NCBI GenBank assembly: GCA_963777505.1
Contig: CAVZQN010000001.1
Span: forward strand, 256,001-320,000
Direction of reading: 5' to 3'
Length of the DNA: 64,000 nt
Origin: an uncultured bacterium
GTDB lineage: Bacteria > Acidobacteriota > HRBIN11 > JAKEFK01
In this document: one piece after another, positions 647 to 50,024 of the stretch
Position numbering within the stretch: the first letter of the stretch is position 1
Layout: each line of letters begins with the position of its first letter
The notes under the pieces: generated by a model
The model's input: only the letters and a program-made list of their open reading frames with translations
Database searches by the model: none
What the model was told of the DNA's origin: nothing
Program-made: the position numbers and the translations under genes

Positions 647-1156
647 GTGAATCTCAAAACCCTGGTAAGCACACTTAAACAAATGCTCCAGCAAGCAATT
701 TCGGGGCAAAAAGGGAACGTTCTCGTCGAAGGGTCCCAGGCGCCAGAATTTGAGATTAACGACGAAAGCGGCAAAAAGCATACCTTAAATCAATATAGAG
801 GTAAGAAAGTAATTCTGTGGTTTTATCCTCGTGCGATGACGCCGGGGTGAACTGAAGAAGGAAAACGATTCCGGGATCGAATCGATGAATTTACTAAACG
901 AAATAGCATTGTTTTGGGAGTCAGCACGGACACCGCGGAAGACAATCGCGCATTTAAAGCGAAAAACGCTTTCCCGTTTCCCCTTCTTTGCGATGTTGAT
1001 GGAATGCTTTCACTAAAATATGGAGCTACAAATTTCAAAAACGCTGCTTTCTCGAACCGGATCAGTTATTTGATTAATGAACATGGAGTTATTGAAAAGG
1101 CTTTTAAGAAAGTCATCCCCGCAAATCATGCCGAAGAACTACTTCAACTTTTGTAA
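647..1156 (+). CDS. bcp: Selenocysteine-containing peroxiredoxin (BCP/PrxQ family)
   Basis: ORFs 647-850 and 914-1156 are in the same frame and joined by TGA 848-850 in WFYPRAMTPG-U-TEEG, the peroxidatic Cys position of FYPxxxTPGCT. A hairpin follows at 866-884. Confidence 0.88.
866..884 (+). promoter_or_regulatory. Putative bacterial SECIS hairpin
   Basis: CGATTC-CGGGATC-GAATCG: 6-bp stem starting 15 nt after UGA, with G at loop position 2. Confidence 0.65.
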
Positions 1157-2336
1157 GGTCTTTGTTCTCTTAATACCCTTCCTCTTTCCTATCTCGGCCT
1201 TATCAGCAGCACAAGATCCACTCTTACCGCCCCAGTTAGACGAATTGAGAACTCAAGGTTTCACGCATCTTTTCAACATGCGGTATCAAGAAGCCCAATC
1301 CAGTTTTGAATCGATGACTCAAGCAGATCCCAAACATCCAGCGGGGTACATTTATACAGGGAATGCAATCTGGCTTCACCATCTTGCGGATCTTCGAAGA
1401 CTGCAATCGAATGTATACAACAAGAGCGATGCTTTCTTTGATAATGAAAAACAAGAAAAAGCGAACCCAAAAGTCGATACGGAATTCCGCAAGAACATGA
1501 ATAAAGGAGTTGAACTAGCTGAGTTAAGACTCGAGAAAAATCCAAATGATATTGAAGCTATCTATTTCCTCGGAGTTGCAAAGAATATCCTTGCCGGCTA
1601 TGAAGCGACAGTCAATCGAAGTTTTTTTTCAGCCCTTCGCAATGGATCAAAAGGTGTGGATCTTCACAGAGATCTAATCAAACGGGATCCCGCATTCATT
1701 GATCCTTACCTGTCCGTTGGAATGTATGACTACATTGTTGGAAGTTTGCCGGTTGCAGTAAAAATCCTCGTTTTCTTTGGCGGTGTTCATGGGTCAAAAA
1801 AGAATGGACTTGCTGCGGTAGAAAAAGTGTATCGGGATGGAGGATATGCCCGCGATGAAGCCGCAGTCCTTCTGGTGATGCTCTATAACCGTGAAAAACG
1901 GCTTTCGGATGCTTTAAATGTAATGAATTATGTTTCTGAAAAATATCCCGAGAATTCACTCTTTGCGCTTGAACGTGCGATGACTCTTGCGCAGCTCAAA
2001 AAGTTTGTACAAAGCCAGGAAGCCTTTGATTCGATTCTTAAAAATACGAGAGCAATGAGTTACATGCCTGATGTTATTTACTATCAATATGGTGAAGCAT
2101 TGTTTTCTGCAGGAGATTGGGATACTGCCGCCTCAAGGTATGCGGAAGCAGCGAATTCTCCAAAAGCACCCGCCGCTTTAAAAACGATGGCATTACTGAA
2201 TGAAGGCCGATGCTATGATGCGATGGGAAAACGCGAACTTGCGTTGAAACGCTATAGCGAAGTCTTAAAAAGACCCGATGTATTTGAATCACACAAAGCC
2301 GCCAAAGAGTTAACAAAAACTCCATTCAAACCTTAA
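1128..2336 (+). CDS. Exported tetratricopeptide-repeat protein
   Basis: Signal-peptide-like N-terminus and several TPR-like helices (EAIYFLG, YYQYGEALF, GRCYDAMGKRELA). ATG 1128 is the likelier start. Confidence 0.75.
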   Translation: MPKNYFNFCKVFVLLIPFLFPISALSAAQDPLLPPQLDELRTQGFTHLFNMRYQEAQSSFESMTQADPKHPAGYIYTGNAIWLHHLADLRRLQSNVYNKSDAFFDNEKQEKANPKVDTEFRKNMNKGVELAELRLEKNPNDIEAIYFLGVAKNILAGYEATVNRSFFSALRNGSKGVDLHRDLIKRDPAFIDPYLSVGMYDYIVGSLPVAVKILVFFGGVHGSKKNGLAAVEKVYRDGGYARDEAAVLLVMLYNREKRLSDALNVMNYVSEKYPENSLFALERAMTLAQLKKFVQSQEAFDSILKNTRAMSYMPDVIYYQYGEALFSAGDWDTAASRYAEAANSPKAPAALKTMALLNEGRCYDAMGKRELALKRYSEVLKRPDVFESHKAAKELTKTPFKP

Positions 2337-2445
2337 CCATTCCTGCCCGCGATTCAATATCAATTTGCAGGGTGATTTTCCTAACTTTAGTCAGGGTTGC
2401 CATGCTGAGCCCGAGTCGATAATGAGTGCAGGAGGAATCATCACC

Positions 2446-2826
2446 ATGAAGGTAACCCGGAACGTCAATTTAGATTCTGTGAGTCAGATTGAATCAAAAA
2501 GTGTTCAGAATGATGCGAAGACGTCTCAAGCTTCAGTTAATAAGGAAATTGCGGCTCCTGCCCAGCAGCTCTCTGTTCCTGAAAGAAATGCAAAGCTTGC
2601 CCATCTCGATCTTGAAGGAACTACAAAACAATTTTCGTTAAAAACTAAACTCGATTCAGATCAAAAATCAATCGAAACTGTTTTTAAGGATGTGAAACTT
2701 TATGCGGAACCGAATGCAAAACACGAAGGCGTAGGCCCCTGTGGTGCAGTGGGACCGTGCAATGTAACGGGGCCGTGCAATGTAACAGGACCGTGTGATA
2801 ACGAAGCAGTTGGGCCCTGTGACTAA
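2446..2826 (+). CDS. Putative RiPP precursor: long leader plus C-terminal ([VT]GPC)x5 core
   Basis: GGAGG SD at 2431 and ATG 2446. C-terminus is EGVGPCGAVGPCNVTGPCNVTGPCDNEAVGPCD. Ends 20 bp before the JmjC gene. Confidence 0.7.
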   Translation: MKVTRNVNLDSVSQIESKSVQNDAKTSQASVNKEIAAPAQQLSVPERNAKLAHLDLEGTTKQFSLKTKLDSDQKSIETVFKDVKLYAEPNAKHEGVGPCGAVGPCNVTGPCNVTGPCDNEAVGPCD

Positions 2827-2846
2827 AAGGATCTGAGGACCTAACC

Positions 2847-4158
2847 ATGATGCTACTAGAGGAAGAAAATATTTCGGCTCAAACTCAGCTTGCTGCAAAG
2901 TTCAGTCTTTCGCGTGACTTTTGGTATGGCTTTTTTTTGCAATCGTGGGGAAAGTATCCGCGAATTCTAAGAAAGCCATTGTCCAACTTGCTTGCCGCTC
3001 CTGAAGAAGTTTTAAAAGCGTTGATTCAAGCTTCGGATCAGTATCGTAAAGGTGAACTCAATACTCCGATCGGATTCTTTGTTGAATATGCAAAGCAATT
3101 GGTAGACGTTCCAACATACCTTCCGGAATCCTGCGATGTTTCATCTGGAAGCGTATGCAAGGCGTGTGGATGAGCTATTGAGACACAGGAAGTTTGGTTT
3201 GATAGCCGAACATTTTCAAATTCACGATTCAAGCATCTGGTTCCGCATCCGTGAATTTCTTCAAGGCCTTTACGAATTTACAGGCCTTCCAGGTGAAGAT
3301 ACGAAGGCAACGATTTTCATCGGGAATTATGATCGAACGCCTCTCGGACTTCACAAAGGCAATTCGCATAATTTTATGTTTGTGCTTTACGGCCGCAAAA
3401 GAATCCGGCTCTGGCCAAAGAAATATTTTAAGAAATCAGACCGCATTGAGCATTCGATTGCTTACGATAAATTCAATGAGGATTCAGTTTTGCTTGAAGG
3501 AAATCCTGGCGACATTCTTTACTGGCCATCCGGATACTGGCACATTGGAGAATCGGCTGAAGATCGTGAACTTTCGATGGGTCTTAGTCTCGCGCTTTTC
3601 ATGGATTCACGCCGCTCAGTCGTTGGTTGGAATACATTAGCAAGACTCCTTCACGCCCGGATTCAAGCTAAGGAAAGCGGATCGAATAAACTGTTTGGTC
3701 TGAAGAGTCATAAGCAGAATCTTGAATCGCTTCCGGATCTCGCGAAACAAACAAAGCTGGCGATTCGCGAGTTATCTGATGATCCATCATTGGAAAAAGC
3801 TGTTGAAGTAACAGTTTTGAATTACCTGACATCGATGGGATTTACACGCGTACCGGTTCTGAACTTCGAAGAAAATCTGGAAGAACATGACACGATCAGC
3901 GGCGTTCCGGGTTCGCCGATTTTGTGGATTCCGTGGAATGATGATCAGCTCTTATGTTCTGCAAATGGTCATGCCTTTACAATGCCTGACGCGGAAGATT
4001 ACTTACAGATTCTTGAGAAACTAAATCGAGGTTCTTGCAGGACCGTAAAAAAATACATTTCCAATTGCGAAATGCCCGCCATCGCACATCAACTTCTTCA
4101 AAAGTTGTACAGCCACGGTGCAATTAGTGTGTCTTCGAAACAGAGTCTCTGCGGTTAA
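2847..4158 (+). CDS. JmjC/cupin Fe(II)-2OG oxygenase (one frameshift near 3143), HxG variant
   Basis: FIGNYDRTPLGLHKGNSHNFMFVLYGRKRIRLWP...PGDILYWPSGYWHIGES. Removing one base near 3143 fuses the two ORFs (…PESCDVS/LEAYARR…). Confidence 0.82.
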
Positions 4159-4200
4159 TCCTTTTCGGGATTCTGCTTGATCATCGGATAAAATGGAAAT

Positions 4201-5937
4201 ATGCGACCGGTTTGTCTAACAATCTTCATCTTCTTTTCTGTACAACTGGGATTTAGCGCACCAGCTGCCGATCTGATTCTGATCAACGGCAAAATCATCA
4301 CAGTGGATGCAAAAGATTCCATTGCGCAAGCAATTGCGATTCGTGAAGGGAAGATTCTGGCTGTTGGAACCAACGAAGAGATTCGAAAACAAGCCGGGAA
4401 CGATACTCGTATCATCGATCTTCATGGACGCACTGCGACACCGGGTCTCATTGACACACACTGCCACTTTGATGCGACAGCTGATTTGTATGCGATTGAT
4501 CTGAGCAACGTGAAGAGTATCGGCGAATCAGTTGAGCTTGTGCGGAAAAAAGTTTCGGAAGTTCAACCAGGTACCTGGATTCGCGGCCACGGATGGGACG
4601 AAAGTAAATTGAAGGAGTTGCGTTACATCACGGCTGCGGATCTGGATAAAGTCTCACCGAATAATCCTGTTTGGCTCTGGCATACCACGTGGCACTACGG
4701 AGTCGCAAATTCGAGGGCTTTGAAGCTTGCAAAAATTACTGCAGAAACGAAAGATCCGGAAGCAGGCACCATCGATCGAGATTCAAATGGCCATCCCACT
4801 GGCGTTCTAAAGGAAGATCCCGCTATGGATCTTGTTGCTCGACTGATCCCACCTTATACACGCGAACAGCAGCGGGCTGGCATTTTGAAAATAATGTCGG
4901 ACTTCAATCGTGAAGGCATGACAGCGGCAAAAGATCCCGGCATTCCGCCGGAACATTGGAAACTGCTTCACGAACTTCTTCAGGAAAAACTGTTTACGGT
5001 CAGGATTTTTGCGCTGCTCCTCGCAGGTACAAACATGGAGTCCGCGAAAGCTGCGCTTGCCCAACTCCAACCGCTTCCAAGGCCTCCCAAATCATTTGAT
5101 GAAGGGATGCTGTTTGCAGGCGGCGTGAAAATTTTTATGGATGGCAGCGGCAGCGCGCGCACAGCCTGGGTTTATGAACCATGGCATAAGAAGTCGGTGG
5201 AAATCGATACAGGAAACACCGGATATCCTTCGCTCGATCAAACTGTGTATCAACAAATGGCCAGGCTATTTCACAATGCAGGAATTCATATCGGTACTCA
5301 TGCCGTTGGTGACCGTGCGATCGATTGGGTTGTAAACACCTATTCTCAGTTGCTTCAAGAAAAACCTGTAAAAGGGCTTCGGCACAGCATCATTCATTGC
5401 AACATTCCAACCGATCATGCAATCGAGACGATGGCAAAGCTTCAAAAAAATTACGATGCAGGTTATCCCGAAGCGCAAGCGCCGTTTATGTGGTGGATTG
5501 GTGACACCTACGCAGGAACATTCGGTCCGAAACGCAATCTTCGACTCATGCCGTTTCGGACGTATTTGAAAAAAGGGATCCTGTGGGCCGGCGGATCCGA
5601 TTTTTCGGTCACGCCATTTCCTGCACGCTATGGACTCTGGTCCACTGTCGAACGAAAAACACTCAACGGTATCTACGGCTCACAACCTTTCGGGACCGAT
5701 GAATCAGTGGATGTTCGTGTCGCATTGAAATCATTCACAATCTGGGCCGCACGACAATTGTTTCTGGAAGATAAAATTGGCTCTCTGGAAGTTGGAAAAG
5801 ATGCAGACATCGCTGTATGGGACCGCGACCTCTACACGATCCCATCGGCCGATCTAAAGAATCTGAAATGCGAACTGACACTCCTGAAAGGCCGCGAAGT
5901 TTACCGAGCAAAAGACTCACCACTGACTGGAATCTAA
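4201..5937 (+). CDS. Amidohydrolase-3 family metallohydrolase (YtcJ-like), exported
   Basis: PGLIDTHCH, GVKIFMDGS, HAVGDRA, GSDF and GSLEVGKDAD motifs; signal peptide. Confidence 0.9.
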   Translation: MRPVCLTIFIFFSVQLGFSAPAADLILINGKIITVDAKDSIAQAIAIREGKILAVGTNEEIRKQAGNDTRIIDLHGRTATPGLIDTHCHFDATADLYAIDLSNVKSIGESVELVRKKVSEVQPGTWIRGHGWDESKLKELRYITAADLDKVSPNNPVWLWHTTWHYGVANSRALKLAKITAETKDPEAGTIDRDSNGHPTGVLKEDPAMDLVARLIPPYTREQQRAGILKIMSDFNREGMTAAKDPGIPPEHWKLLHELLQEKLFTVRIFALLLAGTNMESAKAALAQLQPLPRPPKSFDEGMLFAGGVKIFMDGSGSARTAWVYEPWHKKSVEIDTGNTGYPSLDQTVYQQMARLFHNAGIHIGTHAVGDRAIDWVVNTYSQLLQEKPVKGLRHSIIHCNIPTDHAIETMAKLQKNYDAGYPEAQAPFMWWIGDTYAGTFGPKRNLRLMPFRTYLKKGILWAGGSDFSVTPFPARYGLWSTVERKTLNGIYGSQPFGTDESVDVRVALKSFTIWAARQLFLEDKIGSLEVGKDADIAVWDRDLYTIPSADLKNLKCELTLLKGREVYRAKDSPLTGI

Positions 5938-6578
5938 AAGATATTAGGAATGAACTTCTTCAAGTAGATTAACCGTAAATCAACGGAAAGAATGATCCTT
6001 TCCGTAGTCCCTTGATGTCGAACTGAATGAGGATATTGACCTCCATCTTTAAAGGCTAGCAACTCTCCTTCAACCCAAGTCTGAGTTTCATCTCCAACAG
6101 TAATTTCGCATGCCGGGTCGCACTTTAATCCGAGTTGTACTCGCAAGTAGGTGAAGCACCAACCGTGATGTGGCTTAATGTAACTTCCTGGTTTCAACCT
6201 GCTGACAAATGCATTGGCAAGATTTCCTTGTTGCTCCAACTCACCAATCATCTTTGTTGTGAACGGGCATTGAGATCGAGTCCATTCAGTGTAGGAGACA
6301 ATGTCGAATCCGAGCCGATCTTTTGATATGTCCATGAAATCTTCATTAAACACTGACAACGGAAAGGCCTTCCAATAATTTTCATAGAGACAGGTTTCTT
6401 GTTTTTGATCAACGGGATTTACATATGAAAATTGCGGATAATCTCGCAAAGGATCTTGAGTTTTTATGAAGTTCAAAATCTCATCTTTGATTTCAGCGTA
6501 ATGCGATACTAAGCTGTTACAGATAGGAATTCGTTCCAGATAGTCATTCCAAAATCTACACTCCTCTGCCCTGCTCAT
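5934..6578 (-). CDS. Aspartyl/asparaginyl beta-hydroxylase family Fe/2OG dioxygenase
   Basis: SRLKPGSYIKPHHG, LRVQLGL, WVEGELLAFKD and HSVRH...ERIILSVD match the AspH/LpxO family pattern. Confidence 0.85.
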   Translation of the reverse strand: MSRAEECRFWNDYLERIPICNSLVSHYAEIKDEILNFIKTQDPLRDYPQFSYVNPVDQKQETCLYENYWKAFPLSVFNEDFMDISKDRLGFDIVSYTEWTRSQCPFTTKMIGELEQQGNLANAFVSRLKPGSYIKPHHGWCFTYLRVQLGLKCDPACEITVGDETQTWVEGELLAFKDGGQYPHSVRHQGTTERIILSVDLRLIYLKKFIPNIF

Positions 6579-6834
6579 TTTTGATCTTGCGGAGCCGTTC
6601 CAATAGCTTCTGTCACTTTTTAATCACGTCCCGAACGGACGATGCGTGCCGGGCAACTCTATCTGGAATTACAATCTGGAATTCTTCTTCCAGTTCAAAG
6701 AGAATTTGAAGTCGATCGACTGAATCAATGTCGAGTGAATCAAAAGTAGTGTCGATATTGATGGGGATTTTTTTTCGGCTACATCCTTTAGAGATTGCAG
6801 AAATGGCGCGTTCTTCTATCGTCCTATCGTTCAT
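6575..6834 (-). CDS. Acyl carrier protein
   Basis: TFDSLDIDSVDRLQILFELEEEFQIVIPD carries the Ppant Ser motif. One extra A in the A-run near 6617 would extend it (KKVTEAIGTAPQDQK) to an ATGA overlap with the next gene. Confidence 0.88.
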
Positions 6835-6858
6835 ACATTCTATTAGGACGTCGCGATC

Positions 6859-7404
6859 TTACTGACCAAAAATGTTCGGGTTAATTGCCACTTCTGGGCG
6901 TGCGCATTCTGCACGTATAGAAATGCCATGATCCTCAATCATAGGATCTAGAAACTTCATATCCTTAGGACCTGAAAGGGATGGATCTAAATCTTTGGAT
7001 TGATAGTGAAGCGGTTTATCCAATTTAGCAGCCAAAGCGCCAGCATCCTGAAACTTGCGAACCTCACTTTCCGGCAGACGATTGAGAGTAGCATTCTGAT
7101 CCGGCGTCAGCGCAAAGTTCGTTTTGACAAAGCCTTTGAAGTCTTTGAATGCTTCCGGATATTGCTTTGGAGTCAGACCAGATTGAAGCACATGATTCAT
7201 TGAAGCATCGCTCATGATTACTTTGCCTTCTGATTTTCCAGCTAAATAAGCCGTGCGAAATGAATCCACTTTTGAAGATTCAAATGAGTCATTTGTATTA
7301 GCGATACCTGGTTGCGATTTAGCGGGACTTGCTGGTTGTTCAGTGTTGCTTTGAATCTCTGAGTTTACAGGGGCATTCCGGTTAGTTCTTGAAAGAGGAT
7401 CCAT
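6859..7404 (-). CDS. Orphan protein with disordered S/N/Q/P-rich N-terminus (GIANTNDSFE)
   Basis: 181-aa ORF with GGAGG SD, between the FAAL and ACP genes. Confidence 0.7.
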   Translation of the reverse strand: MDPLSRTNRNAPVNSEIQSNTEQPASPAKSQPGIANTNDSFESSKVDSFRTAYLAGKSEGKVIMSDASMNHVLQSGLTPKQYPEAFKDFKGFVKTNFALTPDQNATLNRLPESEVRKFQDAGALAAKLDKPLHYQSKDLDPSLSGPKDMKFLDPMIEDHGISIRAECARPEVAINPNIFGQ

Positions 7405-7478
7405 TTAACCTCCACATTCCCATCTGGAATTATTAATGCTGAGTATACTTCGTTTCGAAGGCTCTGCAAAAGTTCACG

Positions 7479-9176
7479 TCAAGCCTTTGACAGTTCATTT
7501 TCAAGATAGCGACGACGCATTTCGTTGCGGCGTATTTTACCGCTCGATGTGCGCGCAAGAGAATTTGGCAAAATAAAAAGAACTTCCGAAATTTGAATGC
7601 CCTCTTCGCGATTGATCGCTTCTGAAATCGCTGTTGCGATCGCCTTTTGAGTCTTTTCTGGAATTGACTGTTTGAGTTCCTGTAAAAGTATGAGGCTTTC
7701 ATTTCCAGAATCAGAATCAATCGCAAATGCAGCAGATGGCCGCTGCTGCAACAAAGGGTGAGCAGATTGTGCGATAAATTCTAGATCCTGAGGCGCATAA
7801 TTCTTTCCGCGAATGATAATCAGATCCTTGATTCTTCCCGTAATGAATAGCTCCCCTTCATCATCGAGAAAACCAAGATCGCCAGTTCGCAAATAATGCT
7901 CCGCGAGATGATGAACAAAGTTTTCTTGCGTCGCTTCTGGATGATTCCAATAACCGAGTGCTACACTTGGACCTGACACCCAGATTTCTCCAATATTCCC
8001 GGAAGTACAATCTTTTTGAGTTTCGTTGTCAACAATTCGGAGTTTCACACCTGAGCAGGCTTGTCCGCATCCAACAAAAACCTTACTGGCAACAGAAGAC
8101 TCAGTTTCGATTACCTTATGATCAGCAAGCGCTGCCAAATCAACGCGCTTTTGTTTCATCGGCCGGGACATATCGCGTCCACTAACAATCAATGTGGCTT
8201 CTGCAAGTCCATAACATGGAAGAAAAATATCTTTACGCAGATTAGCGGATCTAAAACGCTCATGGAAGTCCACTAGTGTTGAGGAGTGAATCGGCTCAGC
8301 ACCGTTAAATGCGACGCGAAGCGAAGAGAGATCAAGCTTCTCAATGTCCTCTATCTTTATTTTTTGGACACAAAGATCGTAGGCAAAATTAGGTGCAACT
8401 GTAACCGTACCCCGGTATTTTGAAATAGCCGCTAGCCAATGCAAAGGGCGAATCACGCTTGAAGGGGGCATCAACACAGTTTGCATGCCTGAATACACAG
8501 AGTGAAGAATTGCGCCAATCAGTCCCATATCATGGTACATGGGTAGCCAGCTAACCATGATGTCGGTTTCATTCGCACTCATCGCATCGCTGATCATGCG
8601 AAAATTATTCAGCAAGTTCGCGTGACTCAATGCGACACCTTTCGGGCTACCGGTTGACCCTGATGTGTACTGCAGCAATGCCATCGAGTCTTTTGCTGTA
8701 TGCGGATCCTCCCATTCAGTCGCCATCGAATTTTCAACAGAGTCCACTTCGATCCATTGAATACTTGAGGTTTCAGGGAAATTTTCATCAATTTCTTTTA
8801 CGAAATTGAACATCGCTGTTGTGACTAATACATTGGTGGCCCGTGAGTTCTGAATAATGGAAAACAATCTTTCGAGTTGCTTTCTGGAAAAAGGAGGATA
8901 GAGCGGAACAGGTATTGCTCCGGCGTAAATACATCCGAAAAAACTGGTTATAAGATCGAGTCCACAATCGAAGATCAAAAGAGCTGGTTTGGCGTTCCCT
9001 CCAAGTTGCTGAATGCGACTTGCAATAGCTCGTGCACGATTATCAAGTTCGTTGTATGTGATCGTCTCAACGCCTGAGCCTGTAAGTCCCGCAAGATATG
9101 TAAAAACAACGCGATCAGGATGAGCCTCGGCGCGGGAGCTTAGCATTTCTATTAGAGTGTCAAACTTTGTTTTCAT
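7479..9176 (-). CDS. Fatty acyl-AMP ligase (FAAL)
   Basis: LQYTSGSTGSPKGV, SWLPMYHDMGLIG, CYGLAEATLIVSG followed by the FAAL insertion, RTGDLGF, RTSSGKIRR. Confidence 0.93.
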   Translation of the reverse strand: MKTKFDTLIEMLSSRAEAHPDRVVFTYLAGLTGSGVETITYNELDNRARAIASRIQQLGGNAKPALLIFDCGLDLITSFFGCIYAGAIPVPLYPPFSRKQLERLFSIIQNSRATNVLVTTAMFNFVKEIDENFPETSSIQWIEVDSVENSMATEWEDPHTAKDSMALLQYTSGSTGSPKGVALSHANLLNNFRMISDAMSANETDIMVSWLPMYHDMGLIGAILHSVYSGMQTVLMPPSSVIRPLHWLAAISKYRGTVTVAPNFAYDLCVQKIKIEDIEKLDLSSLRVAFNGAEPIHSSTLVDFHERFRSANLRKDIFLPCYGLAEATLIVSGRDMSRPMKQKRVDLAALADHKVIETESSVASKVFVGCGQACSGVKLRIVDNETQKDCTSGNIGEIWVSGPSVALGYWNHPEATQENFVHHLAEHYLRTGDLGFLDDEGELFITGRIKDLIIIRGKNYAPQDLEFIAQSAHPLLQQRPSAAFAIDSDSGNESLILLQELKQSIPEKTQKAIATAISEAINREEGIQISEVLFILPNSLARTSSGKIRRNEMRRRYLENELSKA

Positions 9177-16559: not shown

Positions 16560-19500
16560 TCATCTAGAGGAGTAGTCGCCAATCAGAACGAATGGAGCCC
16601 AATAATATGGATGGCTAAATTTATGGGATCGGATCATTTCAAGCCGAGCTTGCTTTAACGCTGCCGGGTGTTCAAGGTTTTTATTTTCCAGGTTATTGTA
16701 AAAACGGACCATAAAATCCGATGTTGAAGCATCGTATACATTCCATAAACTTACCAGTACTTCCGAGGTACCGGCTGAAAGAAATGCACGGGACAACCCA
16801 TTGACTCCTTCCCCGCGGATCTGCTTTCCTAATCCCGTTTTGCAGGCAGAAAGGACAACGAGATTCGCATTAAGACGCAGATCAAAAACTTCGCGCAATG
16901 TCAGATATCCATCTTCTCCACTACCAGGTTCCGAGGCGAGAATAAGCGCGGAATATTGAGGATTTTCTTCATCAATTAATCCGTGACTTGCAAAATGGAT
17001 GTACCGAAATTTCTCAAGATTCGAATGCTTTACCTTATCTTCAGTAGCATCTTGCCCAAAATACAACAAAGACTGCTCATCAGGGTAGAGCTTGGAAATT
17101 GTTTTCACTTCATTGCGTGCAAAGGGCAACGGCGCGAGAGTTCCGGCCCATTCGCGAACTGTAGCATTCATTGGAGTACCGGTCGTTTCTGGCAATGCTG
17201 GATCGGCAAATGCGATTAGCTGCGCCGTAGCAGTATCACTGCGCCGCGTGACGCTTCTCAGTGAGCCAAGTACAGAAACAGACGGCACATAAGCGATCTC
17301 ATATCTGCTTCCAAAGTAAGCCAGCCTTGAAAAATCAATTGCTTTTGGTGAATTAGATTCTACAAGAAGACTTTCGAAAGGAAGATAATGCAACGGACCA
17401 TCAGGTGCGATAATAATTTTCTGTTTTTCATTCACCATGAGTTGCCCCGGAGCAATCAGGGATTGATACAACCAGGCAGCCTTCTGAACATAATCCGAGT
17501 GTGCATGCTCCGTAGTTTCAAACATTGCATCAGGCTTTTGAAGAAGCTGCCGTAGCGAGTGTACCGCCTGCGTTAATTCTTGATCGCCAGGAAGTGTGTG
17601 CGCTACGAGATTATCTGATGTAAGGACAAACAGAACCGAATTCTTTTTGCCGATAAAGTATTCAAGAAGTATCGAAGTTGGATCCAGAAGTTTTTTAGCA
17701 TTCTCAAAACTTAGGATCTTCGGCCTCTGCAAGTCTGCAAACCGCGGATCAAGATTGCGAATCTCTATCATTACACTCGCATACTGTTCATCAAGTGCTT
17801 TTACTTCATTCTGAAGTTTCCTGATTTTTGTAGCATCCGGATTTTCACTTTCAAGCTCATCCTTAAGTCGGCTGTTTGCGGTTGTAGATCCGCGGATTAT
17901 TTTTTTCTTTTTTAAGTCCAATACAGGATCATGAACCGGATCCTGAATTCTTGCTTCAGCTAAAAGATCCAGAAATGCCCTTGCTTTGGATCGCTGTACG
18001 TATTCAAATGCTTCAGCAGTCTTTCCTGATTGAACCAATTGTAAAATCAGATCCTCAAAAATTTGAAATTTGTTTTCAAGAAATCCTGATTTTTGCTCAG
18101 CCAAAAGCACGTGAGAACGCATTTTTTCGGTTAGTTCAATCGCTTCTTTCATGAATGCGATCGATTCTTCAATTTGGCCTATTTTGCTGTACAGCATTGC
18201 TTTTTCATAAAGCGCATCACTCAGATTCTCCGTTAGATCCGCCTTGCGAAACGTTTCAATCGCTGTGGACAATTCCTGCATCGCTTGGGTATTTCTTCCC
18301 ATTTTCGCCAGAATGCTTCCGACGTACATCCGGCTTAAACCTTCATCTAGTCCGTGACCAATCGATTCCATCATGGAAAGCGCTTTCAGTTGGGAGGCAA
18401 GTGCTGCGTCATACTTTCCGAGCCGGCTTTGAACATTCGAAATATTGCCGATGGCTTGAGCAATCCCTCTCTTCTCACCCATTTCTTCGTATAGCTTCAA
18501 GACTTTTTCGTATTGAGACAATGCCTCTTTATAATTTCCTTTTTGTTCATTGATGCCGCCAATATCAGTAAGCGCATAAGCGGCTGCTCTTTTTTCGCCA
18601 ATTTGTTCCGAGATCTTGTAGGCTTTTTGAAAATATTGCAACGCACGATCTTCCTGATTGAGCGCCCAATAAATCCTTCCTAATTCACTGACCGTTACTG
18701 CCTCTAATCCGCGATCCTTTAATTCGATCGATAATTCATAGGCACGCTGAAGGCTCTCCATCGATTTTCCATAGTCTCCCAGGTTCATATATACAATTCC
18801 CATATTCAGCAGATTTGTACCCATGCCGGGCTTATCGGAGGCCCTCACAAAAAACAGTTGCGCTTCATTGAAATCTCTTAATGCAGCATCCAGATCACCT
18901 TGATTCCAGTAGACCAATCCGCGATTTCCCAAAATCATATTTTTTTGAAACTCTAAATTGTGTTCTCCTGCAATCTGAAGGCCTTTCCCATAAGTATCCA
19001 GTGCTAACGAATACTCACCCTGGATCCACTGCACTGCACCCACATTTCTAAGAGCCGATACTATTACTGCAGGAAAAGGAATTTTTTCTGCAAGGTGAAG
19101 GGCTCGTTCAAAGTATTCGAGTGCTTCAGGAAATTTTCCCAGTCGGTTTAAGAGCGCTCCACGATAATCAATTGCTTTTGCGAGTTCTTTTTGGTTACCA
19201 CTTTTTTCGATGATTGCGATTGCCTGCTCGGATACTTTGATTCCTTCTTCGTAAGCGCCGGAGCTTAGTTTAAAACGCGTCAGTAAATTTAAGGAGCCTC
19301 CAAGACACTCATCGTCTTTTATTTCGCGACAGATTTTCTCTGCCCGTGCTTGTGCCTTTTCTGCCTCTGACTTTCTCCCAATAATTTCGAGTGGAAAACC
19401 GATCATGATCAGAGATTTTGCAATATTCCTTTGATTTTTCGATTCTTCAGCGAGTTGAATCGCTCTTGAACATAGATCCACAGCTTTCTGAAAGTTACCC

Positions 19501-19631
19501 TGGTCGGTTTCTTTTTCCGACATCGCCAATAGATCGGAGTCTTTCGATTCCTGATCGCCGGGATAAGCAATTGCAGGAAAAAGAATCAGAATTATGAAAC
19601 AAATTTGCCATAAGAATGCGAGTCGAAGCAT
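16560..19631 (-). CDS. Exported TPR-CHAT (caspase-like) protease
   Basis: Signal peptide, many TPRs, HFASHG and LSACKTG catalytic dyad, HPYYWAPF. Confidence 0.92.
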   Translation of the reverse strand: MLRLAFLWQICFIILILFPAIAYPGDQESKDSDLLAMSEKETDQGNFQKAVDLCSRAIQLAEESKNQRNIAKSLIMIGFPLEIIGRKSEAEKAQARAEKICREIKDDECLGGSLNLLTRFKLSSGAYEEGIKVSEQAIAIIEKSGNQKELAKAIDYRGALLNRLGKFPEALEYFERALHLAEKIPFPAVIVSALRNVGAVQWIQGEYSLALDTYGKGLQIAGEHNLEFQKNMILGNRGLVYWNQGDLDAALRDFNEAQLFFVRASDKPGMGTNLLNMGIVYMNLGDYGKSMESLQRAYELSIELKDRGLEAVTVSELGRIYWALNQEDRALQYFQKAYKISEQIGEKRAAAYALTDIGGINEQKGNYKEALSQYEKVLKLYEEMGEKRGIAQAIGNISNVQSRLGKYDAALASQLKALSMMESIGHGLDEGLSRMYVGSILAKMGRNTQAMQELSTAIETFRKADLTENLSDALYEKAMLYSKIGQIEESIAFMKEAIELTEKMRSHVLLAEQKSGFLENKFQIFEDLILQLVQSGKTAEAFEYVQRSKARAFLDLLAEARIQDPVHDPVLDLKKKKIIRGSTTANSRLKDELESENPDATKIRKLQNEVKALDEQYASVMIEIRNLDPRFADLQRPKILSFENAKKLLDPTSILLEYFIGKKNSVLFVLTSDNLVAHTLPGDQELTQAVHSLRQLLQKPDAMFETTEHAHSDYVQKAAWLYQSLIAPGQLMVNEKQKIIIAPDGPLHYLPFESLLVESNSPKAIDFSRLAYFGSRYEIAYVPSVSVLGSLRSVTRRSDTATAQLIAFADPALPETTGTPMNATVREWAGTLAPLPFARNEVKTISKLYPDEQSLLYFGQDATEDKVKHSNLEKFRYIHFASHGLIDEENPQYSALILASEPGSGEDGYLTLREVFDLRLNANLVVLSACKTGLGKQIRGEGVNGLSRAFLSAGTSEVLVSLWNVYDASTSDFMVRFYNNLENKNLEHPAALKQARLEMIRSHKFSHPYYWAPFVLIGDYSSR

Positions 19632-33750: not shown

Positions 33751-35740
33751 TTAATTGGTTGGCGCTCTGTCAGACTTTCCCTGAAGATAGTGGCCATACC
33801 AGGCGAGATATCTTTCGTAAAGATCCTTTACGTAATATGGTGAATCAATTCCGTGATTCTCACCCGGATAAACAATCAGCATTGTATCGACATTCAATCG
33901 CCGAAGAGCTTGATACATTTGTTCCGAATGGATCAAAGGAACATTCCAATCTTCCTGGCCGCACAAAAATAATGTAGGTGTCTTTACATTTTCAACTTGA
34001 AAAAACGGTGAAAGTTTTCGCCAGTGATCAAAATTGCGCCAGGGCAACTCAAGCTCTTTCTCCCAGGCGTGTTGCCATTCATCTGTTCCGTAACCAGCAA
34101 AATGATTCGCAATACCCGCACCTGAAGTAGCTGCTTTAAAACGATCAGTTTTTGTAATCACTGTATCGGTTTGCATCCCGCCATAACTCCATCCACCTAC
34201 TCCCATTTTTTCAGGATCGATGAAGCCTTTTGACACAATGTAATCGACACCGGACATCAAGTCTTCATAGTCCTTAATTCCCCAGGCAGACCAGATCACT
34301 CTTGCGAATTCCTCACCATAACCAGTAGATCCGCGTGGATTCAAACCAGCGACGACATATCCGTTCGCAGCAAACAATTGCCAATCATAATAAAAGCCTT
34401 CATTGTATTGATCGTTTGGTCCGCCATGAATTCTCAGTATGAATGGATATTTTTTTGAAGGATCAAAATCGGGCGGAAAAGTCAGAAAGCCTTCGATAGG
34501 AATGCCTTCATTATTCTTGAATTGAATCCGCTCTGTTTTTCCAAATTCTACAGATTGCAGCAGCTTCGCATTCGTCTGCGTCATCTGTTTGGATCCTTCA
34601 TTTTGATTCCAGATAAAAAGTTCCGATGGAAAGTCTGAACGCTCGGAAAGAAATGCGATAGAACCGCCTGGCCCGGCATCAAATTCTGTAACGACATTAA
34701 CTGAGAGTACATCTCGATTCACTAACCCGCCTTCAACAGGCACGCTGGCTAGACGATGAGTTCCGTGATCTTCCAACAGGAAATAAATAAGACGGCTGTC
34801 GCTGGCTGAACGCAATGTTGAATACATTTCGATCTAATTCACGGGTGAGAATTTTTGGCGTACCGCCTTCGGAGGAAATCACAGCAACTTCCAGAGTGTC
34901 GTACCAGATGATGTCCGGCTGGACCGATGTTGAATAGACAATCCATTTTCCATCCGGACTCCATGAAGGCGTTTCATCCGGCCCTTCATTTGTTGTTAAC
35001 TTTTTCAATTCTCCGCCATCGCTTGAAACGATAAATAAATCCGTATTCGTATTCGTGTCAGGATCTTTGGTCCGATTACTGACAAAGAGAATTGTTTTTC
35101 CATCAGGACTCCACCTTGGTGAAGAATCATCGAATGCTCCTGAGGTAATTTGCTTCAACTTACCTGTACTCAGATCAAGTGTGTACAGATGTGAACGCAG
35201 ATCATTTAAATATCCTGTGCCATCCCGTTTCGTCTGTCTGCGTGTAACGACAATCGGTTTTTCGAATCCTAATACTTCTGATTGATCTGCATCCGTCAAG
35301 ATCAATGCGAGCTTATTTCCATCCGGTGACCATTCGAATTCATCAATGCCCTGCTTGATGTCTGTGAGCTTGCGGGCCTCGCCACCACCAAGGCTTAATT
35401 CGAAAACCTGCGATTCTTCGTTCTCACGCGAGGACAAGAAGGTAATACTGTTTCTATTTGGATGCCATCTTGGTGTTGAGTCTCTTTTTGGATAACTTGT
35501 AAGTTGGATTGGCGCTCCTCCACCCGATGGAACCATCCATAGATCCTGATTCTTTCGATTTTTTTTGACATCGAATTGTGTTGCTTCGTATGCAACCCAT
35601 TTTCCATCAGGGGATACTTGTGGAGAAGACAACTGTTGAATCGAAAAATAGTCATCAACAGTCAGGCGGCGCCGTGATTCAGAATAAGCGGACTGTAAAC
35701 TCACGCAAACCAAAAGAGCTGAAAGCAAGATCTTGTTCAT
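33751..35740 (-). CDS. S9 family acylaminoacyl peptidase (frameshift near 34805)
   Basis: PD40/WSPDG propeller plus IHGGP, GWSYGG, DWNVP and GENHG catalytic motifs. Confidence 0.92.
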
Positions 35741-35815
35741 ATGTGCCAATAGCATGCCATGACACAAATCGGAATGGAAGATTCCAAAATAAATACAGGT
35801 TATGATCGTATCGTT

Positions 35816-49600: not shown

Positions 49601-50024
49601 AAGATTGATAGAGATTCTGACGTGCTTTGAATATTAAACGATCATCGGAAGCAGCCGTACGGATTTTTTGTAGATAAATTGCATATTGCCCCTGCGCATT
49701 TTTTAAAGTAGGTTGTATCTCAATCCGATATTGGCCGGATTGATCAGCAAAAAAAGCCAACTGCTCTCGACCTTGATTTCTATTCTCTTGATCAAAAACC
49801 AAAATTTGTTTTCCATCGACGCCGTTTAATTTGATTACCACATCAACATTCATTTGTTCCACAACAACACATGCAAAATCACCTTCAGCAAGATTGATTT
49901 CAAACGATTGAGTTGTATTGCCGGAAATTTTGTTAGAAACGGTCTTTTCTGGTTCAAGTGGCGAGCTTTGAGCATTGAGCGATGATGAGAACAACACCAG
50001 AATCAATAAGAGGTATGCAAACAT
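46679..50024 (-). CDS. Exported TPR-CHAT protease (frameshift near 47229)
   Basis: Signal peptide, PPC-like domain, kinesin-light-chain-type TPRs, HIATHG, LSACDTG, HPFFWASF. Confidence 0.9.

What the first reader, a model, noticed from the sequence alone, without database searches (positions are those of the whole stretch)
2446..4158. Candidate new RiPP: ([VT]GPC)x5 precursor plus JmjC oxygenase
Seen: a 126-aa protein with a ~90-aa Cys-free leader ends in VGPC-GA-VGPC-NV-TGPC-NV-TGPC-DNEA-VGPC-D. The repeats use different synonymous codons (ggc ccc tgt, gga ccg tgc, ggg ccg tgc, gga ccg tgt, ggg ccc tgt), which suggests selection at the protein level. A JmjC gene follows after 20 bp. Known: repeat-core precursors next to Fe/2OG enzymes are a RiPP hallmark. 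Inference: each GPC unit is modified (Pro/Val hydroxylation or halogenation, or Cys chemistry). No protease or transporter gene is adjacent, so the product may be a modified protein rather than a released peptide.
Basis: partly seen in the sequence, partly recalled or inferred. Interest (0 to 1): 0.85.

Follow-up and report, generated by a model that had tools for sequence, protein, structure and literature searches.

The report
Repeat peptide with two-histidine JmjC enzyme
A small gene ending in five (Val/Thr)-Gly-Pro-Cys units sits next to an iron enzyme that lacks one of its usual metal-binding residues; the same pairing recurs in many soil metagenome contigs, so it looks like an uncharacterised family of enzyme-modified peptides whose chemistry is still unknown.

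Summary
Window 2446-2826 encodes a 126-aa protein with a 95-aa Cys-free leader and five [V/T]GPC units. A JmjC gene follows after 20 nt. A 98-99% identical protein (P0001) is intact, and other genes in the window are split too, so an assembly error is the likelier cause.

The pairing is not chance. In the enzyme's own clade, 18 of 19 metagenome loci carry one to seven short same-strand leader-type ORFs (K-x-K-D-L ... K-G-G leader), upstream in 16 and downstream in two, and 10 of 19 have x[V/T/I][G/E]PC cores. None of 76 HxD/E loci has such a core. Two loci add bacteriocin-type ABC exporter genes, one with a C39 peptidase domain.

The enzyme has the ribosomal-oxygenase fold: JmjC, helical arm and a winged-helix domain ordered like a RiPP recognition element. 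Its iron-binding Asp is Gly (H168-K-G170 ... H231). The 2OG-binding Lys is kept.

Chemistry was not tested. I favour a Cys-involving cross-link within each unit (about 0.35-0.4), then AspH-like hydroxylation (about 0.27), then halogenation (about 0.18). I rate it a new variant of a known kind, JmjC-tailored RiPPs.

The parts
2431..2437 (+). Ribosome-binding site (AGGAGGA), 8 nt before the precursor ATG
   Evidence: read from the sequence
2446..2826 (+). Precursor gene, 126 aa plus stop
   Evidence: The only relative found is P0038 (89-91% identity), in 5.8 billion and 1.84 billion protein libraries.
2446..2730 (+). Cys-free leader, 95 aa. No family match and no Gly-Gly junction (it ends ...K-H-E-G).
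   Evidence: hhalign of the short-peptide profile A4 against the precursor aligns only a core unit, not the leader.
2731..2823 (+). Core of five [V/T]GPC units (2731-2742, 2749-2760, 2767-2778, 2785-2796, 2809-2820) with 2-4-residue linkers and a final Asp
   Evidence: The unit matches the consensus [A/G/V/I]-[V/T/I]-G-P-C of the short precursors.
2751..2795 (+). 18-nt tandem DNA repeat (2.5 copies) that generated units 2-4
   Evidence: Tandem Repeats Finder
2847..3173 (+). JmjC gene, N-terminal fragment (frame 3). Residues 1-98, counted from the ATG at 2850, are identical to P0001.
3141..3147 (+). Frameshift site: one extra base between codon 98 and codon 99 relative to the intact homologue
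   Evidence: Reads did not cover it.
3136..4158 (+). JmjC gene, C-terminal fragment (frame 1, open from 3106): double-stranded beta-helix core, helical arm and winged-helix domain
   Evidence: Pfam PF08007/PF13621; AF2 model of P0001, pLDDT 89.3; Foldseek hits NO66, YcfD and MINA53
3352..3360 (+). H168-K-G170: first iron ligand, with Gly where the family's Asp/Glu ligand sits
   Evidence: alignments. G170 aligns with the Asp of the H-L-D motif of E. coli YcfD. Coordinates.
3397..3399 (+). K183, aligned with the YcfD Arg 15 residues after the first His. I recall this as the 2OG C5-carboxylate binder.
   Evidence: The role of the YcfD residue is recalled, not taken from a call.
3541..3543 (+). 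H231, second iron ligand (invariant)
3892..4131 (+). C-terminal winged-helix / RRE-like domain (P0001 residues 348-427; four strands then three helices)
   Evidence: DSSP on the AF2 model; the whole-chain fold matches ribosomal oxygenases

Best explanation
Window 2446-4158 is a two-gene cassette of the RiPP type. It holds a ribosomal precursor and, directly after it, the single enzyme that tailors it.

The enzyme belongs to the ribosomal-oxygenase branch of JmjC Fe(II)/2-oxoglutarate enzymes. Its C-terminal winged-helix (RRE-like) domain would hold the leader (inferred). Its beta-helix core would work on each [V/T]GPC unit in turn (inferred).

The enzyme keeps both iron-binding His residues and the 2OG-binding Lys, but it has Gly where the Asp ligand should be. 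One iron coordination site is therefore left for a ligand that the enzyme does not supply.

My leading guess, about 0.35-0.4, is that this ligand is the unit's own Cys thiolate. The ferryl would abstract hydrogen from the beta-branched residue three positions upstream (or from Pro), and the radical would recombine with sulfur. This would give one small thioether ring per unit, five per precursor. The logic is that of isopenicillin N synthase and of the alpha-KG Cys-Tyr macrocyclase reported in 2025.

Shown: the gene pair, the recurrence of the pairing, the fold, and the missing carboxylate. Inferred: binding, the target residue, and the chemistry. I put the precursor/enzyme pairing itself at about 0.85. 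In this assembly the enzyme gene carries a 1-nt frameshift that is probably an assembly error.
For: Pairing:
- In the enzyme's clade, 18 of 19 metagenome loci have 1-7 same-strand leader-type small ORFs next to the JmjC gene, upstream in 16 loci and downstream in L103 and L113.
- 17 of those 18 loci have Cys in the core, and 10 of 19 have [VTI][GE]PC.
- 0 of 76 HxD/E loci and 0 of 7 rSAM-context HxG loci have such cores.
- A profile of 20 short precursors finds 169 clusters in 5.8 billion proteins.
- 117 of the 120 listed have an xxPC unit. Over the 119 units in those 117 peptides, position -3 is V 82 / T 24 / I 10 and position -2 is G in 112.
- hhalign matches a window unit to that core (P 1.3e-4, 8 columns).
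- JmjC is the only conserved enzyme in these loci.
- Of the 10 neighbour proteins scanned, L082 has a cNMP-C39-ABC exporter, and L072 has an ABC transporter, an HlyD protein and an S51 peptidase.

Enzyme:
- PF08007 scores above its cut-off.
- Foldseek top hits are NO66, YcfD and MINA53, probability 1.00.
- G170 aligns to the Asp of YcfD's H-L-D motif, H231 to its second His, and K183 to its Arg.

Gly and Cys go together:
- A clade of 16 rows (SH-aLRT 98) holds 14 HxG rows and two reversions.
- The revertant L074 (HRD) has [I/L]EP-type cores without GPC.
- Clade-specific changes beside G170 are S172 (15 of 16 against 0 of 11 in sisters), K152 (16 of 16 against mostly Glu/Asp) and F250/M251. This makes the site more positive, which fits an anionic ligand (inference).

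Precedent:
- An alpha-KG enzyme forming a Cys-Tyr cross-link in a RiPP (Xia et al., JACS 2025). I saw it only as a citation and as one sentence in PMC12636437.
- It is cited beside JmjC-RRE homologues in PMC12710340.
Against: - No product was seen, so all chemistry is inference.
- L071 (HPG) has three leader-type peptides with V-I-G-P-N and I-E-P-R in place of the Cys unit. Cys is therefore not always needed while Gly stays.
- P0002, the sister of the window's enzyme, has HKE. I could not see its peptide.
- Natural two-His 2OG hydroxylases exist. AspH shows no halogenation with chloride, and FIH D201G is still active (PMC6817910, passage). Gly alone therefore proves no special chemistry.
- The loci are not independent. 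L082/L093, L073/L085/L087, L070/L080, L076/L090 and L103/L113 share identical or near-identical peptides, which leaves about ten lineages.
- The leader profile used included the core, so it favours GPC peptides.
- The window's leader shows no detectable homology to the short leaders.
- The short-peptide profile does not find the window's precursor in the genome scan at E<=1.
- The enzyme gene is broken in this assembly.
- The genome, 95.9% complete, has no C39 peptidase.
- I had no model coordinates, so 'near the iron' is inferred from strand positions only.
Confidence: 0.4

Rival explanations
1. The enzyme is a plain hydroxylase with a natural two-His iron site, as in human AspH. It hydroxylates Val/Thr/Ile at -3 or Pro at -1 of each unit. 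Cys serves recognition, a later disulfide, or metal binding.
For: - All JmjC enzymes characterised so far in RiPP pathways, in the papers I read, are hydroxylases: BipG on ornithine (PMC12707348, passages) and CzlI on Phe (PMC11575548, passages).
- A 2025 preprint states that alpha-KG activities in RiPPs are 'largely confined to hydroxylation' (PMC12636437).
- AspH has two His ligands and hydroxylates without halogenating, and FIH D201G, a JmjC enzyme, remains viable (PMC6817910).
- L071 keeps HxG with Cys-free V-I-G-P-N / I-E-P-R cores.
- The nearest folds are protein hydroxylases.
Against: - The Asp-to-Gly change is ancestral and is kept in 14 of 16 clade rows.
- It comes with further clade-specific changes: S172, K152 and F250/M251.
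- It travels with a near-invariant Cys in the cores.
- The revertant L074 (HRD) has cores without GPC.
- A lone free thiol in a peptide that these loci appear set up to export, with no other tailoring enzyme in the loci, is unusual.
Confidence: 0.27
2. The enzyme is a radical halogenase. Chloride or bromide takes the site vacated by Asp, and Val/Thr/Ile or Pro is halogenated. The halide either stays, or acts cryptically as a leaving group that the neighbouring Cys displaces to give the same thioether.
For: - HxG/A with retained 2OG binding is the signature of Fe/2OG halogenases. The motif is stated for SyrB2, CytC3, WelO5 and AmbO5 in PMC6817910 and for SyrB2, CmaB and HctB in PMC2938197.
- G170 is present and K183 is kept.
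- Ser two residues after Gly and a Glu-to-Lys change on strand I could hold an anion (inference).
- L071 keeps HxG without Cys, which fits a target other than Cys.
- The beta-branched aliphatic residue at -3 is conserved: V, T or I in 116 of 119 units.
Against: - No JmjC-fold halogenase, and no Fe/2OG halogenase acting on a RiPP, appeared in my searches.
- The 2025 review, in the passages seen, names flavin-dependent enzymes as the prominent peptide halogenases and nonheme-iron halogenases only on carrier-bound amino acids (PMC12615548).
- The 2026 halogenase catalogue lists only free-substrate and ACP-tethered variants (PMC13519999, passages).
- AspH shows that two-His does not imply halogenation.
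- Two reversions to Glu/Asp occur inside the clade.
Confidence: 0.18
3. This rival concerns the state of this copy and does not exclude the readings above. The cassette is decaying in this organism. The frameshift in the JmjC gene would be real, and the locus would be a relic of a horizontally acquired RiPP pair.
For: - The gene is split at about 3144.
- The only relative of the precursor, P0038, is itself out of frame from inside the tandem repeat onward.
- The enzyme was not found at E<=1e-10 in any of 100 related genomes, including one of the same genus and five others of the same family.
- The cassette lies at a synteny break. PilT, the Prx-like gene and the TPR gene are conserved in G001, but the next gene there differs, and the amidohydrolase orthologue lies about 280 kb away.
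- No C39 peptidase is found in the genome.
Against: - At least two other genes in the same 64 kb are split in the same way. One is an S9 peptidase (33751-35827). The other is a TPR-CHAT protein whose CHAT profile positions 3-137 and 122-288 fall in two overlapping ORFs (46679-50024). This points to indel errors in the assembly.
- The 98-99% identical P0001 is intact.
- Apart from the single base, the two fragments are undamaged: 98 of 98 and 332 of 337 residues are identical.
Confidence: 0.28
4. The adjacency is a coincidence. The small ORF is not the enzyme's substrate, and the enzyme modifies a ribosomal or other cellular protein like its structural relatives.
For: - The nearest solved folds are ribosomal-protein hydroxylases.
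- JGI annotators named several homologues 'L16 Arg81 hydroxylase'.
Against: - Peptide genes recur beside the enzyme in 18 of 19 clade loci, across about ten lineages, with the same core motif.
- The spacer is 20 nt and each gene has its own ribosome-binding site.
- The enzyme was not found in 100 relatives, which is unlike a housekeeping ribosome modifier.
- Exporter genes lie in L072 and L082.
Confidence: 0.05

Closest known systems
Ribosomal oxygenases (E. coli YcfD/RoxA, human NO66 and MINA53)
   Same: Both have the three-part architecture of JmjC beta-helix, helical arm and C-terminal winged helix. Foldseek probability is 1.00 and TM about 0.46-0.55. A profile match covers the H-x-D...H region. 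Both have protein or peptide substrates.
   Different: Gly replaces the iron-binding Asp. The gene sits after peptide genes rather than standing alone. It is sporadic among relatives. Sequence identity is only 13-17%.
JmjC hydroxylases of RiPP pathways: BipG (biphenomycin, ornithine hydroxylase) and CzlI (curacozole, Phe hydroxylase)
   Same: These are JmjC-type Fe/2OG enzymes that tailor a ribosomal precursor (PMC12707348; PMC11575548).
   Different: CzlI is described with a His-Asp-His triad, whereas this enzyme has His-Gly-His. Those pathways contain many other enzymes, whereas here JmjC is the only conserved one. I could not compare sequences, because none was available through the tools.
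alpha-KG-dependent dioxygenase that macrocyclises a RiPP through a Cys-Tyr cross-link (Xia et al., J Am Chem Soc 2025, 147:26693)
   Same: An alpha-KG enzyme forms a bond involving Cys in a ribosomal peptide (one sentence in PMC12636437). It is cited in PMC12710340 where JmjC-RRE homologues in RiPP-like contexts are mentioned.
   Different: The paper is not held. I do not know its fold, its iron ligands or its precursor. The window's core has no aromatic residue at all, so any cross-link here would be Cys to an aliphatic residue.
Fe/2OG radical halogenases (SyrB2, CmaB, WelO5 and relatives)
   Same: Both have a two-His iron site with Ala/Gly in place of the carboxylate and retained 2OG use (PMC6817910; PMC2938197).
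   Different: The known halogenases act on carrier-tethered or free small molecules (PMC13519999; PMC12615548). None in the papers I read is JmjC/ROX-fold or RiPP-acting.
Human aspartyl/asparaginyl beta-hydroxylase AspH
   Same: AspH has a natural two-His iron site and acts on Cys-rich peptide domains (PMC6817910).
   Different: It belongs to a different family. PF05118 does not hit this enzyme; it hits another gene of the window, 5934-6578. AspH is a hydroxylase of Asp/Asn.
Double-glycine leader peptides exported by C39-peptidase ABC transporters
   Same: The short relatives have an invariant G-G before the core. L082 encodes a cNMP-C39-ABC exporter, and L072 an ABC transporter plus HlyD. Sister-clade leaders score just below threshold against TIGR04149 and lant_leader_L1a.
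   Different: The window's precursor has no G-G junction and a 95-aa unrelated leader. Its genome shows no C39 domain.

Membership tests
JmjC / cupin_4 (Pfam PF08007) | Profile match above the curated cut-off | tested here: met
   30.8 bits for the window fragment and 30.1 for P0001, against a cut-off of 22
Ribosomal oxygenase (ROX) subfamily | JmjC core + helical arm + C-terminal winged helix | tested here: met
   AF2 secondary-structure order; best Foldseek matches NO66, YcfD and MINA53
Ribosomal oxygenase (ROX) subfamily | Substrate is a ribosomal protein | not testable with these tools
   The context argues against it: peptide genes lie beside 18 of 19 clade loci, and the enzyme was not found in 100 relatives.
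Canonical Fe(II)/2OG oxygenase | His-x-Asp/Glu...His facial triad | tested here: not met
   H168-K-G170...H231. Gly aligns with the Asp of YcfD's H-L-D. No conserved acid lies at 171-175.
Canonical Fe(II)/2OG oxygenase | Basic residue that binds the 2OG C5 carboxylate | tested here: met
   K183 is at least 90% conserved and aligns with the YcfD Arg 15 residues after the first His. That residue's role is recalled, not from a call.
Fe/2OG radical halogenase | His-x-Gly/Ala...His | tested here: met
   The feature is necessary but not sufficient (AspH).
Fe/2OG radical halogenase | Halide-dependent carbon-halogen bond formation | not testable with these tools
   needs an enzyme assay
RiPP biosynthetic locus | Small precursor gene, co-oriented and adjacent to the tailoring enzyme, with a leader/core layout conserved among relatives | tested here: met
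   For the window's long leader itself, only the core unit is shared.
RiPP biosynthetic locus | RRE-type peptide-binding domain | tested here: inconclusive
   The C-terminal domain has the strand x3-4 then helix x3 order. RRE fusions to PF08007 are reported (PMC12710340).
RiPP biosynthetic locus | Leader protease / exporter | tested here: not met
   None adjacent and no PF03412 match in the 95.9%-complete genome. The feature is present in relatives L082 and L072.
RiPP biosynthetic locus | Post-translational modification demonstrated | not testable with these tools
   needs mass spectrometry
Double-glycine (PCAT) leader peptides | Gly-Gly/Gly-Ala immediately before the core | tested here: not met
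   The window's junction is ...K-H-E-G|V-G-P-C. The feature is met in all 20 short relatives aligned.
AspH family (PF05118) | Profile match | tested here: not met
   There is no PF05118 hit on the enzyme. The hit in the window is to 5934-6578.

The most novel reading that the evidence does not exclude
The Gly-for-Asp enzymes would be the first JmjC-fold radical halogenases, and the first Fe/2OG halogenases that work on ribosomal peptides. They would chlorinate the Val/Thr/Ile (or Pro) of each x[V/T/I]GPC unit. In most members the neighbouring Cys would then displace the halide, a cryptic halogenation that writes a thioether ring. The window's protein would carry five such rings.
Probability: 0.18. 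Interest if true: 0.9.

Novelty: new variant of a known kind. Interest (0 to 1): 0.7.

Why it matters
JmjC enzymes are known as hydroxylases and demethylases. A natural, conserved loss of the iron-binding carboxylate in a peptide-modifying JmjC clade is the kind of change that elsewhere created halogenases. It could also make room for a substrate thiolate.

The family is minimal: peptide genes, one enzyme, and sometimes an exporter. It is widespread in metagenomes, with 169 peptide clusters, and it is entirely unannotated. One co-expression experiment could therefore reveal new C-H functionalisation chemistry on genetically encoded peptides.

That result would give a leader-guided catalyst for thioether, chloro or hydroxy groups on aliphatic residues. 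It would also test directly how the two-His site steers the outcome in the JmjC fold. The window's five-unit precursor would report five turnovers on one substrate.

Tried and rejected
Searches and tests that gave nothing usable:
- Sequencing runs: three soil-metagenome runs held about 5% of the sampled words, and no RNA holder was listed. Laid on 2300-4300, their contigs covered only parts of 3171-4242. Depth was zero over the precursor and the frameshift, so nothing can be said about the extra base or about expression.
- Complex prediction for enzyme plus precursor: not available.
I therefore could not see the contigs of P0002 and P0003, the 70-72% identical relatives. Neither appeared among the metagenome loci.
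- Promoter and terminator scan of 2200-4400: 0 promoter-like sites and 2 terminator-like sites, both on the minus strand, against a shuffle mean of 2.2. Uninformative.
- NCBIfam: no family for the precursor, the five short HxG-clade peptides scanned or the enzyme. There were only sub-threshold leader hits for L080, L112 and L084.

Ideas considered and dropped:
- I thought the window's leader segment F-K-D-V-K-L...K-H-E-G resembled the short leaders' K-x-K-D-L...K-G-G. hhalign aligned only the 8-residue core, and the short-peptide HMM did not find the ORF at E<=1. I therefore drop leader homology.
- A GPC-repeat search in the 66 genome-contig loci found no repeat precursor. Those loci are mostly HxD and at most 36% identical.
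- Programmed frameshifting is rejected, because P0001 is in one frame and other genes in the window are split as well.
- A clean insertion site is not shown. The flanking genes are not adjacent in the same-genus genome.
- The sulfatase C-x-P-x-R (formylglycine) motif was considered for the P-C-x-R unit. The order of residues differs, and I did not pursue it.

Limits of the evidence:
- The tree is the quick IQ-TREE search, because the careful one did not finish. It used 73 rows. These came from 76 after removing 3 identical rows, and only loci with His at position 168, a match starting within query residue 40 and an ORF of at least 330 aa were included, plus P0001-P0003.
- Supplementary files of papers were closed. 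Those of PMC12710340 may list the JmjC-RRE fusions.
- The paper by Xia et al. 2025 is not held, so I cannot say whether its enzyme belongs to this family or has the Gly.
- Claims that no JmjC-fold halogenase and no RiPP-acting Fe/2OG halogenase are in print rest on searches, and on passages read. These cover only the held library.


Full report
WHAT IS THERE

Window 2446-2826 (+) is an ORF of 126 codons behind an AGGAGGA ribosome-binding site. Its first 95 residues contain no Cys.

The motif [VT]GPC occurs 41 times in the 7.9 million six-frame residues of the whole 5.2-Mb genome, and five of those are here. No other of the 157,572 six-frame segments has two [VTI]GPC or three GPC. Units 2-4 sit in an 18-nt tandem DNA repeat (2751-2795, 2.5 copies). 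Part of the repetition is therefore a recent duplication, and units 1 and 5 are the diverged ones.

After a 20-nt spacer a JmjC gene starts (ATG at 2847/2850). It is not one frame: 2847-3173 and 3136-4158 (open from 3106) are in different frames. An intact 435-aa protein, P0001, is identical over residues 1-98 and differs at 5 of 337 later positions. One extra base lies between codons 98 and 99, at about 3144.

IS THE FRAMESHIFT REAL?

At least two other genes in this window are split in the same way. One is an S9 peptidase: its propeller part is at 34733-35827 and its catalytic part at 33751-34827. The other is a TPR-CHAT protein whose CHAT profile positions 3-137 and 122-288 fall in two overlapping ORFs. 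That rate suggests indel errors in the assembly.

The only relative of the precursor, P0038, goes out of frame from inside the tandem repeat onward. Public runs gave no cover at the site. I put a real pseudogene at roughly 0.28.

THE ENZYME

Pfam places the enzyme in JmjC_2/Cupin_8. An AlphaFold2 model of P0001, built with 31 homologues, is confident (pLDDT 89.3, pTM 0.88). It shows a beta-helix core, a long helical arm (255-327) and a C-terminal domain of four strands followed by three helices (348-427).

Foldseek ranks the ribosomal oxygenases NO66, YcfD and MINA53 first, at probability 1.00 and 13-17% identity. A profile of the family aligns to E. coli YcfD as follows:
- H168 falls on the first His of YcfD's H-L-D motif.
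- G170 falls on the Asp of that motif.
- K183 falls on the Arg 15 residues later. I recall this residue as the 2OG carboxylate binder.
- H231 falls on the second His.

The enzyme therefore keeps two His and the 2OG anchor but has no carboxylate ligand. No conserved acid lies in the next five positions.

THE FAMILY

37 homologues were found in 5.8 billion proteins. Scans gave 66 loci in species genomes and 52 in metagenomes. At the ligand position these 118 loci read Asp 67, Gly 26, Glu 9, Ala 1 and other 2, with 13 not covered.

A quick maximum-likelihood tree of 73 rows puts the window's enzyme in a clade of 16 rows (SH-aLRT 98). Fourteen have Gly. The two exceptions are P0002 (HKE, the window's sister) and L074 (HRD). 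Gly is thus ancestral there and reverted twice.

Beside G170, the clade differs from its Asp-bearing sisters at four places:
- S172: 15 of 16 rows, against 0 of 11 in the sisters.
- K152: 16 of 16 rows, where the sisters mostly have Glu or Asp.
- R186.
- F250/M251.

These residues lie on beta-helix strands I, II-III, IV and VIII according to the model's DSSP. That they line the iron site is my inference, because I had no coordinates.

A second, distant Gly group (L020, L025, L038, L048, L061, L101, L109) sits between two radical-SAM genes, one of them with a B12-binding domain, and in some loci methyltransferases, with no such peptides nearby.

THE PEPTIDES

I took 19 metagenome loci with HxG and at least 33% identity. 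Eighteen have one to seven small same-strand ORFs beside the enzyme gene that match a leader-plus-core profile, upstream in 16 loci and downstream in L103 and L113. The exception is L077.

Twenty of these peptides align with invariant M1, K, D-L, G-G, P-C and a consensus M-A-K...K-V-K-D-L-A-P-K...K-x-V-K-G-G-x-V-G-P-C-x-R-x-x-K. Ten of the 19 loci have [VTI][GE]PC cores. L070 and L080 have two or three units in one peptide, and on the tree (which holds L070 but not L080) that lineage is close to the window's enzyme.

Variants keep a beta-branched residue, usually Pro, and Cys:
- I-L-P-C-I, F-I-P-C-V and I-V-P-C-I in L083.
- G-I-P-P-C-I in L079.
- F-I-L-C-R in L086.
- S-C-I-P-M in L076 and L090.
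- D-C-E-P-M-T in L103 and L113.

Seventeen of the 18 loci have Cys in the core. L071 has V-I-G-P-N and I-E-P-R instead. None of 76 Asp/Glu loci has a [VTI][GE]PC core.

The same profile finds 169 peptide clusters in 5.8 billion proteins. All are unnamed or called 'hypothetical protein'. Of the 120 listed, 117 carry an xxPC unit. Over the 119 units in those 117 peptides, -3 is V 82, T 24 or I 10; -2 is G in 112; and +2 is R in 99.

Caveats:
- The profile contains the core, so it favours such peptides.
- Many loci are near-duplicates, which leaves about ten lineages.

JmjC is the only enzyme shared by these loci. L082 also encodes a cNMP-C39-ABC exporter. L072 encodes an ABC transporter, HlyD, a sigma-54 activator and an S51 peptidase.

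HOW THE WINDOW'S COPY DIFFERS

- Its precursor is an orphan apart from P0038.
- Its 95-aa leader has no family and no detectable similarity to the short leaders. Only one core unit aligns.
- There is no Gly-Gly junction.
- The genome has no other such peptide and no C39 domain.
- The enzyme was not found in 100 related genomes.
- The cassette lies where synteny with the same-genus genome ends.

It looks like a horizontally acquired, concatenated five-unit derivative of the short-peptide system.

MECHANISM

Shown: the gene pair, its recurrence, the fold and the missing carboxylate. Inferred: everything about chemistry.

Three readings fit a two-His site.

(a) The Cys thiolate of the unit binds iron at the open position. 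The ferryl abstracts hydrogen from the residue at -3 or from Pro, and the radical recombines with sulfur, giving one thioether ring per unit. In favour:
- Gly and Cys travel together.
- The HRD revertant L074 has cores with [I/L]-E-P and no GPC.
- No other tailoring enzyme exists to deal with a lone thiol.
- An alpha-KG enzyme forming a Cys-Tyr cross-link in a RiPP was reported in 2025. I saw only one sentence about it in PMC12636437 and its citation beside JmjC-RRE homologues in PMC12710340. The paper itself is not held.
Against: L071 keeps Gly without Cys.

(b) Hydroxylation by a natural two-His site, as in AspH. AspH does not halogenate, and the JmjC enzyme FIH stays active as D201G (PMC6817910). 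The characterised RiPP JmjC enzymes I read about are hydroxylases.

(c) Halogenation, stable or cryptic. The motif fits. However, neither a JmjC-fold halogenase nor a RiPP-acting Fe/2OG halogenase turned up in the held library.

My odds are (a) 0.35-0.4, (b) 0.27, (c) 0.18, and other or inactive for the rest.

COMPARISON AND NOVELTY

JmjC tailoring of RiPPs is known, and RRE fusions to PF08007 have been noted. The following are new relative to what I could read:
- This peptide family.
- The conserved Gly-for-Asp clade that goes with it.
- The five-unit long-leader form in the window.

I file it as a new variant of a known kind. The chemistry could turn out to be categorically new.

Noticed in passing
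window 647-1156 (+), TGA at 848-850: This is a Bcp/peroxiredoxin-like frame with a single in-frame TGA at what I recall as the catalytic Cys position of the peroxiredoxin P-G-C-T motif (...F-Y-P-R-A-M-T-P-G-[TGA]-T-E-E...). The same-genus genome G001 also stops right after ...P-R-A-S-T-P-G. The genome encodes a tRNA-SeC (anticodon tca). It is a likely selenocysteine peroxiredoxin. A simple fold of 845-905 was no better than shuffles, so no SECIS element is shown.
   Followed up: partly
window 33751-35827 (-) and 46679-50024 (-): Two more genes are split into overlapping ORFs. One is an S9 peptidase, with its propeller and catalytic halves separated. The other is a TPR-CHAT protein, with CHAT profile positions 3-137 and 122-288 in separate ORFs. 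The kinase/PD40 pair at 51719-53519 may be a third case. This suggests indel errors in the assembly.
   Followed up: partly
window 5934-9176 (-): Four co-oriented genes lie here: an Asp/Asn beta-hydroxylase-like protein (PF05118), a 73-aa carrier protein (PP-binding), an unknown 181-aa protein, and a 565-aa AMP-binding (fatty-acyl-AMP-ligase-like) enzyme. It is a small acyl-carrier cassette with its own Fe/2OG enzyme, on the opposite strand from the finding.
   Followed up: no
L020, L025, L038, L048, L061, L101, L109: This is a second, distant group of JmjC homologues that also have Gly at the acid-ligand position (HRG). They sit between two large radical-SAM genes, one of which has a B12-binding domain. 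TPR and methyltransferase genes are nearby, and no KGG-leader peptides were detected. It appears to be a separate gene cluster of unknown product.
   Followed up: partly
L007, L008, L009, L029, L084, L112 (mostly Pyrinomonadaceae): The Asp-bearing sister clade also follows Gly-Gly-leader peptides (...K-E-S-V-K-D-L-T...Q-I-K-G-G), but with different cores such as K-A-K-A-I-I-S-L-V-C-E-T-G-V-R. Their leaders score just below threshold against TIGR04149 and lant_leader_L1a.
   Followed up: partly
L074 / L075 (metagenome, HRD revertant inside the Gly clade): The enzyme has Asp restored. Its leader-type peptides have cores with I-E-P-P, L-E-P-V or E-P-I-N and no GPC unit. This is a natural contrast case for testing the Gly-Cys link.
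   Followed up: partly
P0038 (only relative of the precursor): This 93-aa protein is 89-91% identical to the precursor. It starts at the position of the window's residue 25. It leaves the frame after the first VGPC unit, inside the 18-nt tandem repeat, and then reads a shifted frame of the same DNA. It is either a real break or an assembly slip in repeated DNA.
   Followed up: partly
window 16560-19631 (-) and 46679-50024 (-): There are two large TPR-CHAT (caspase-like) proteins within 30 kb.
   Followed up: no
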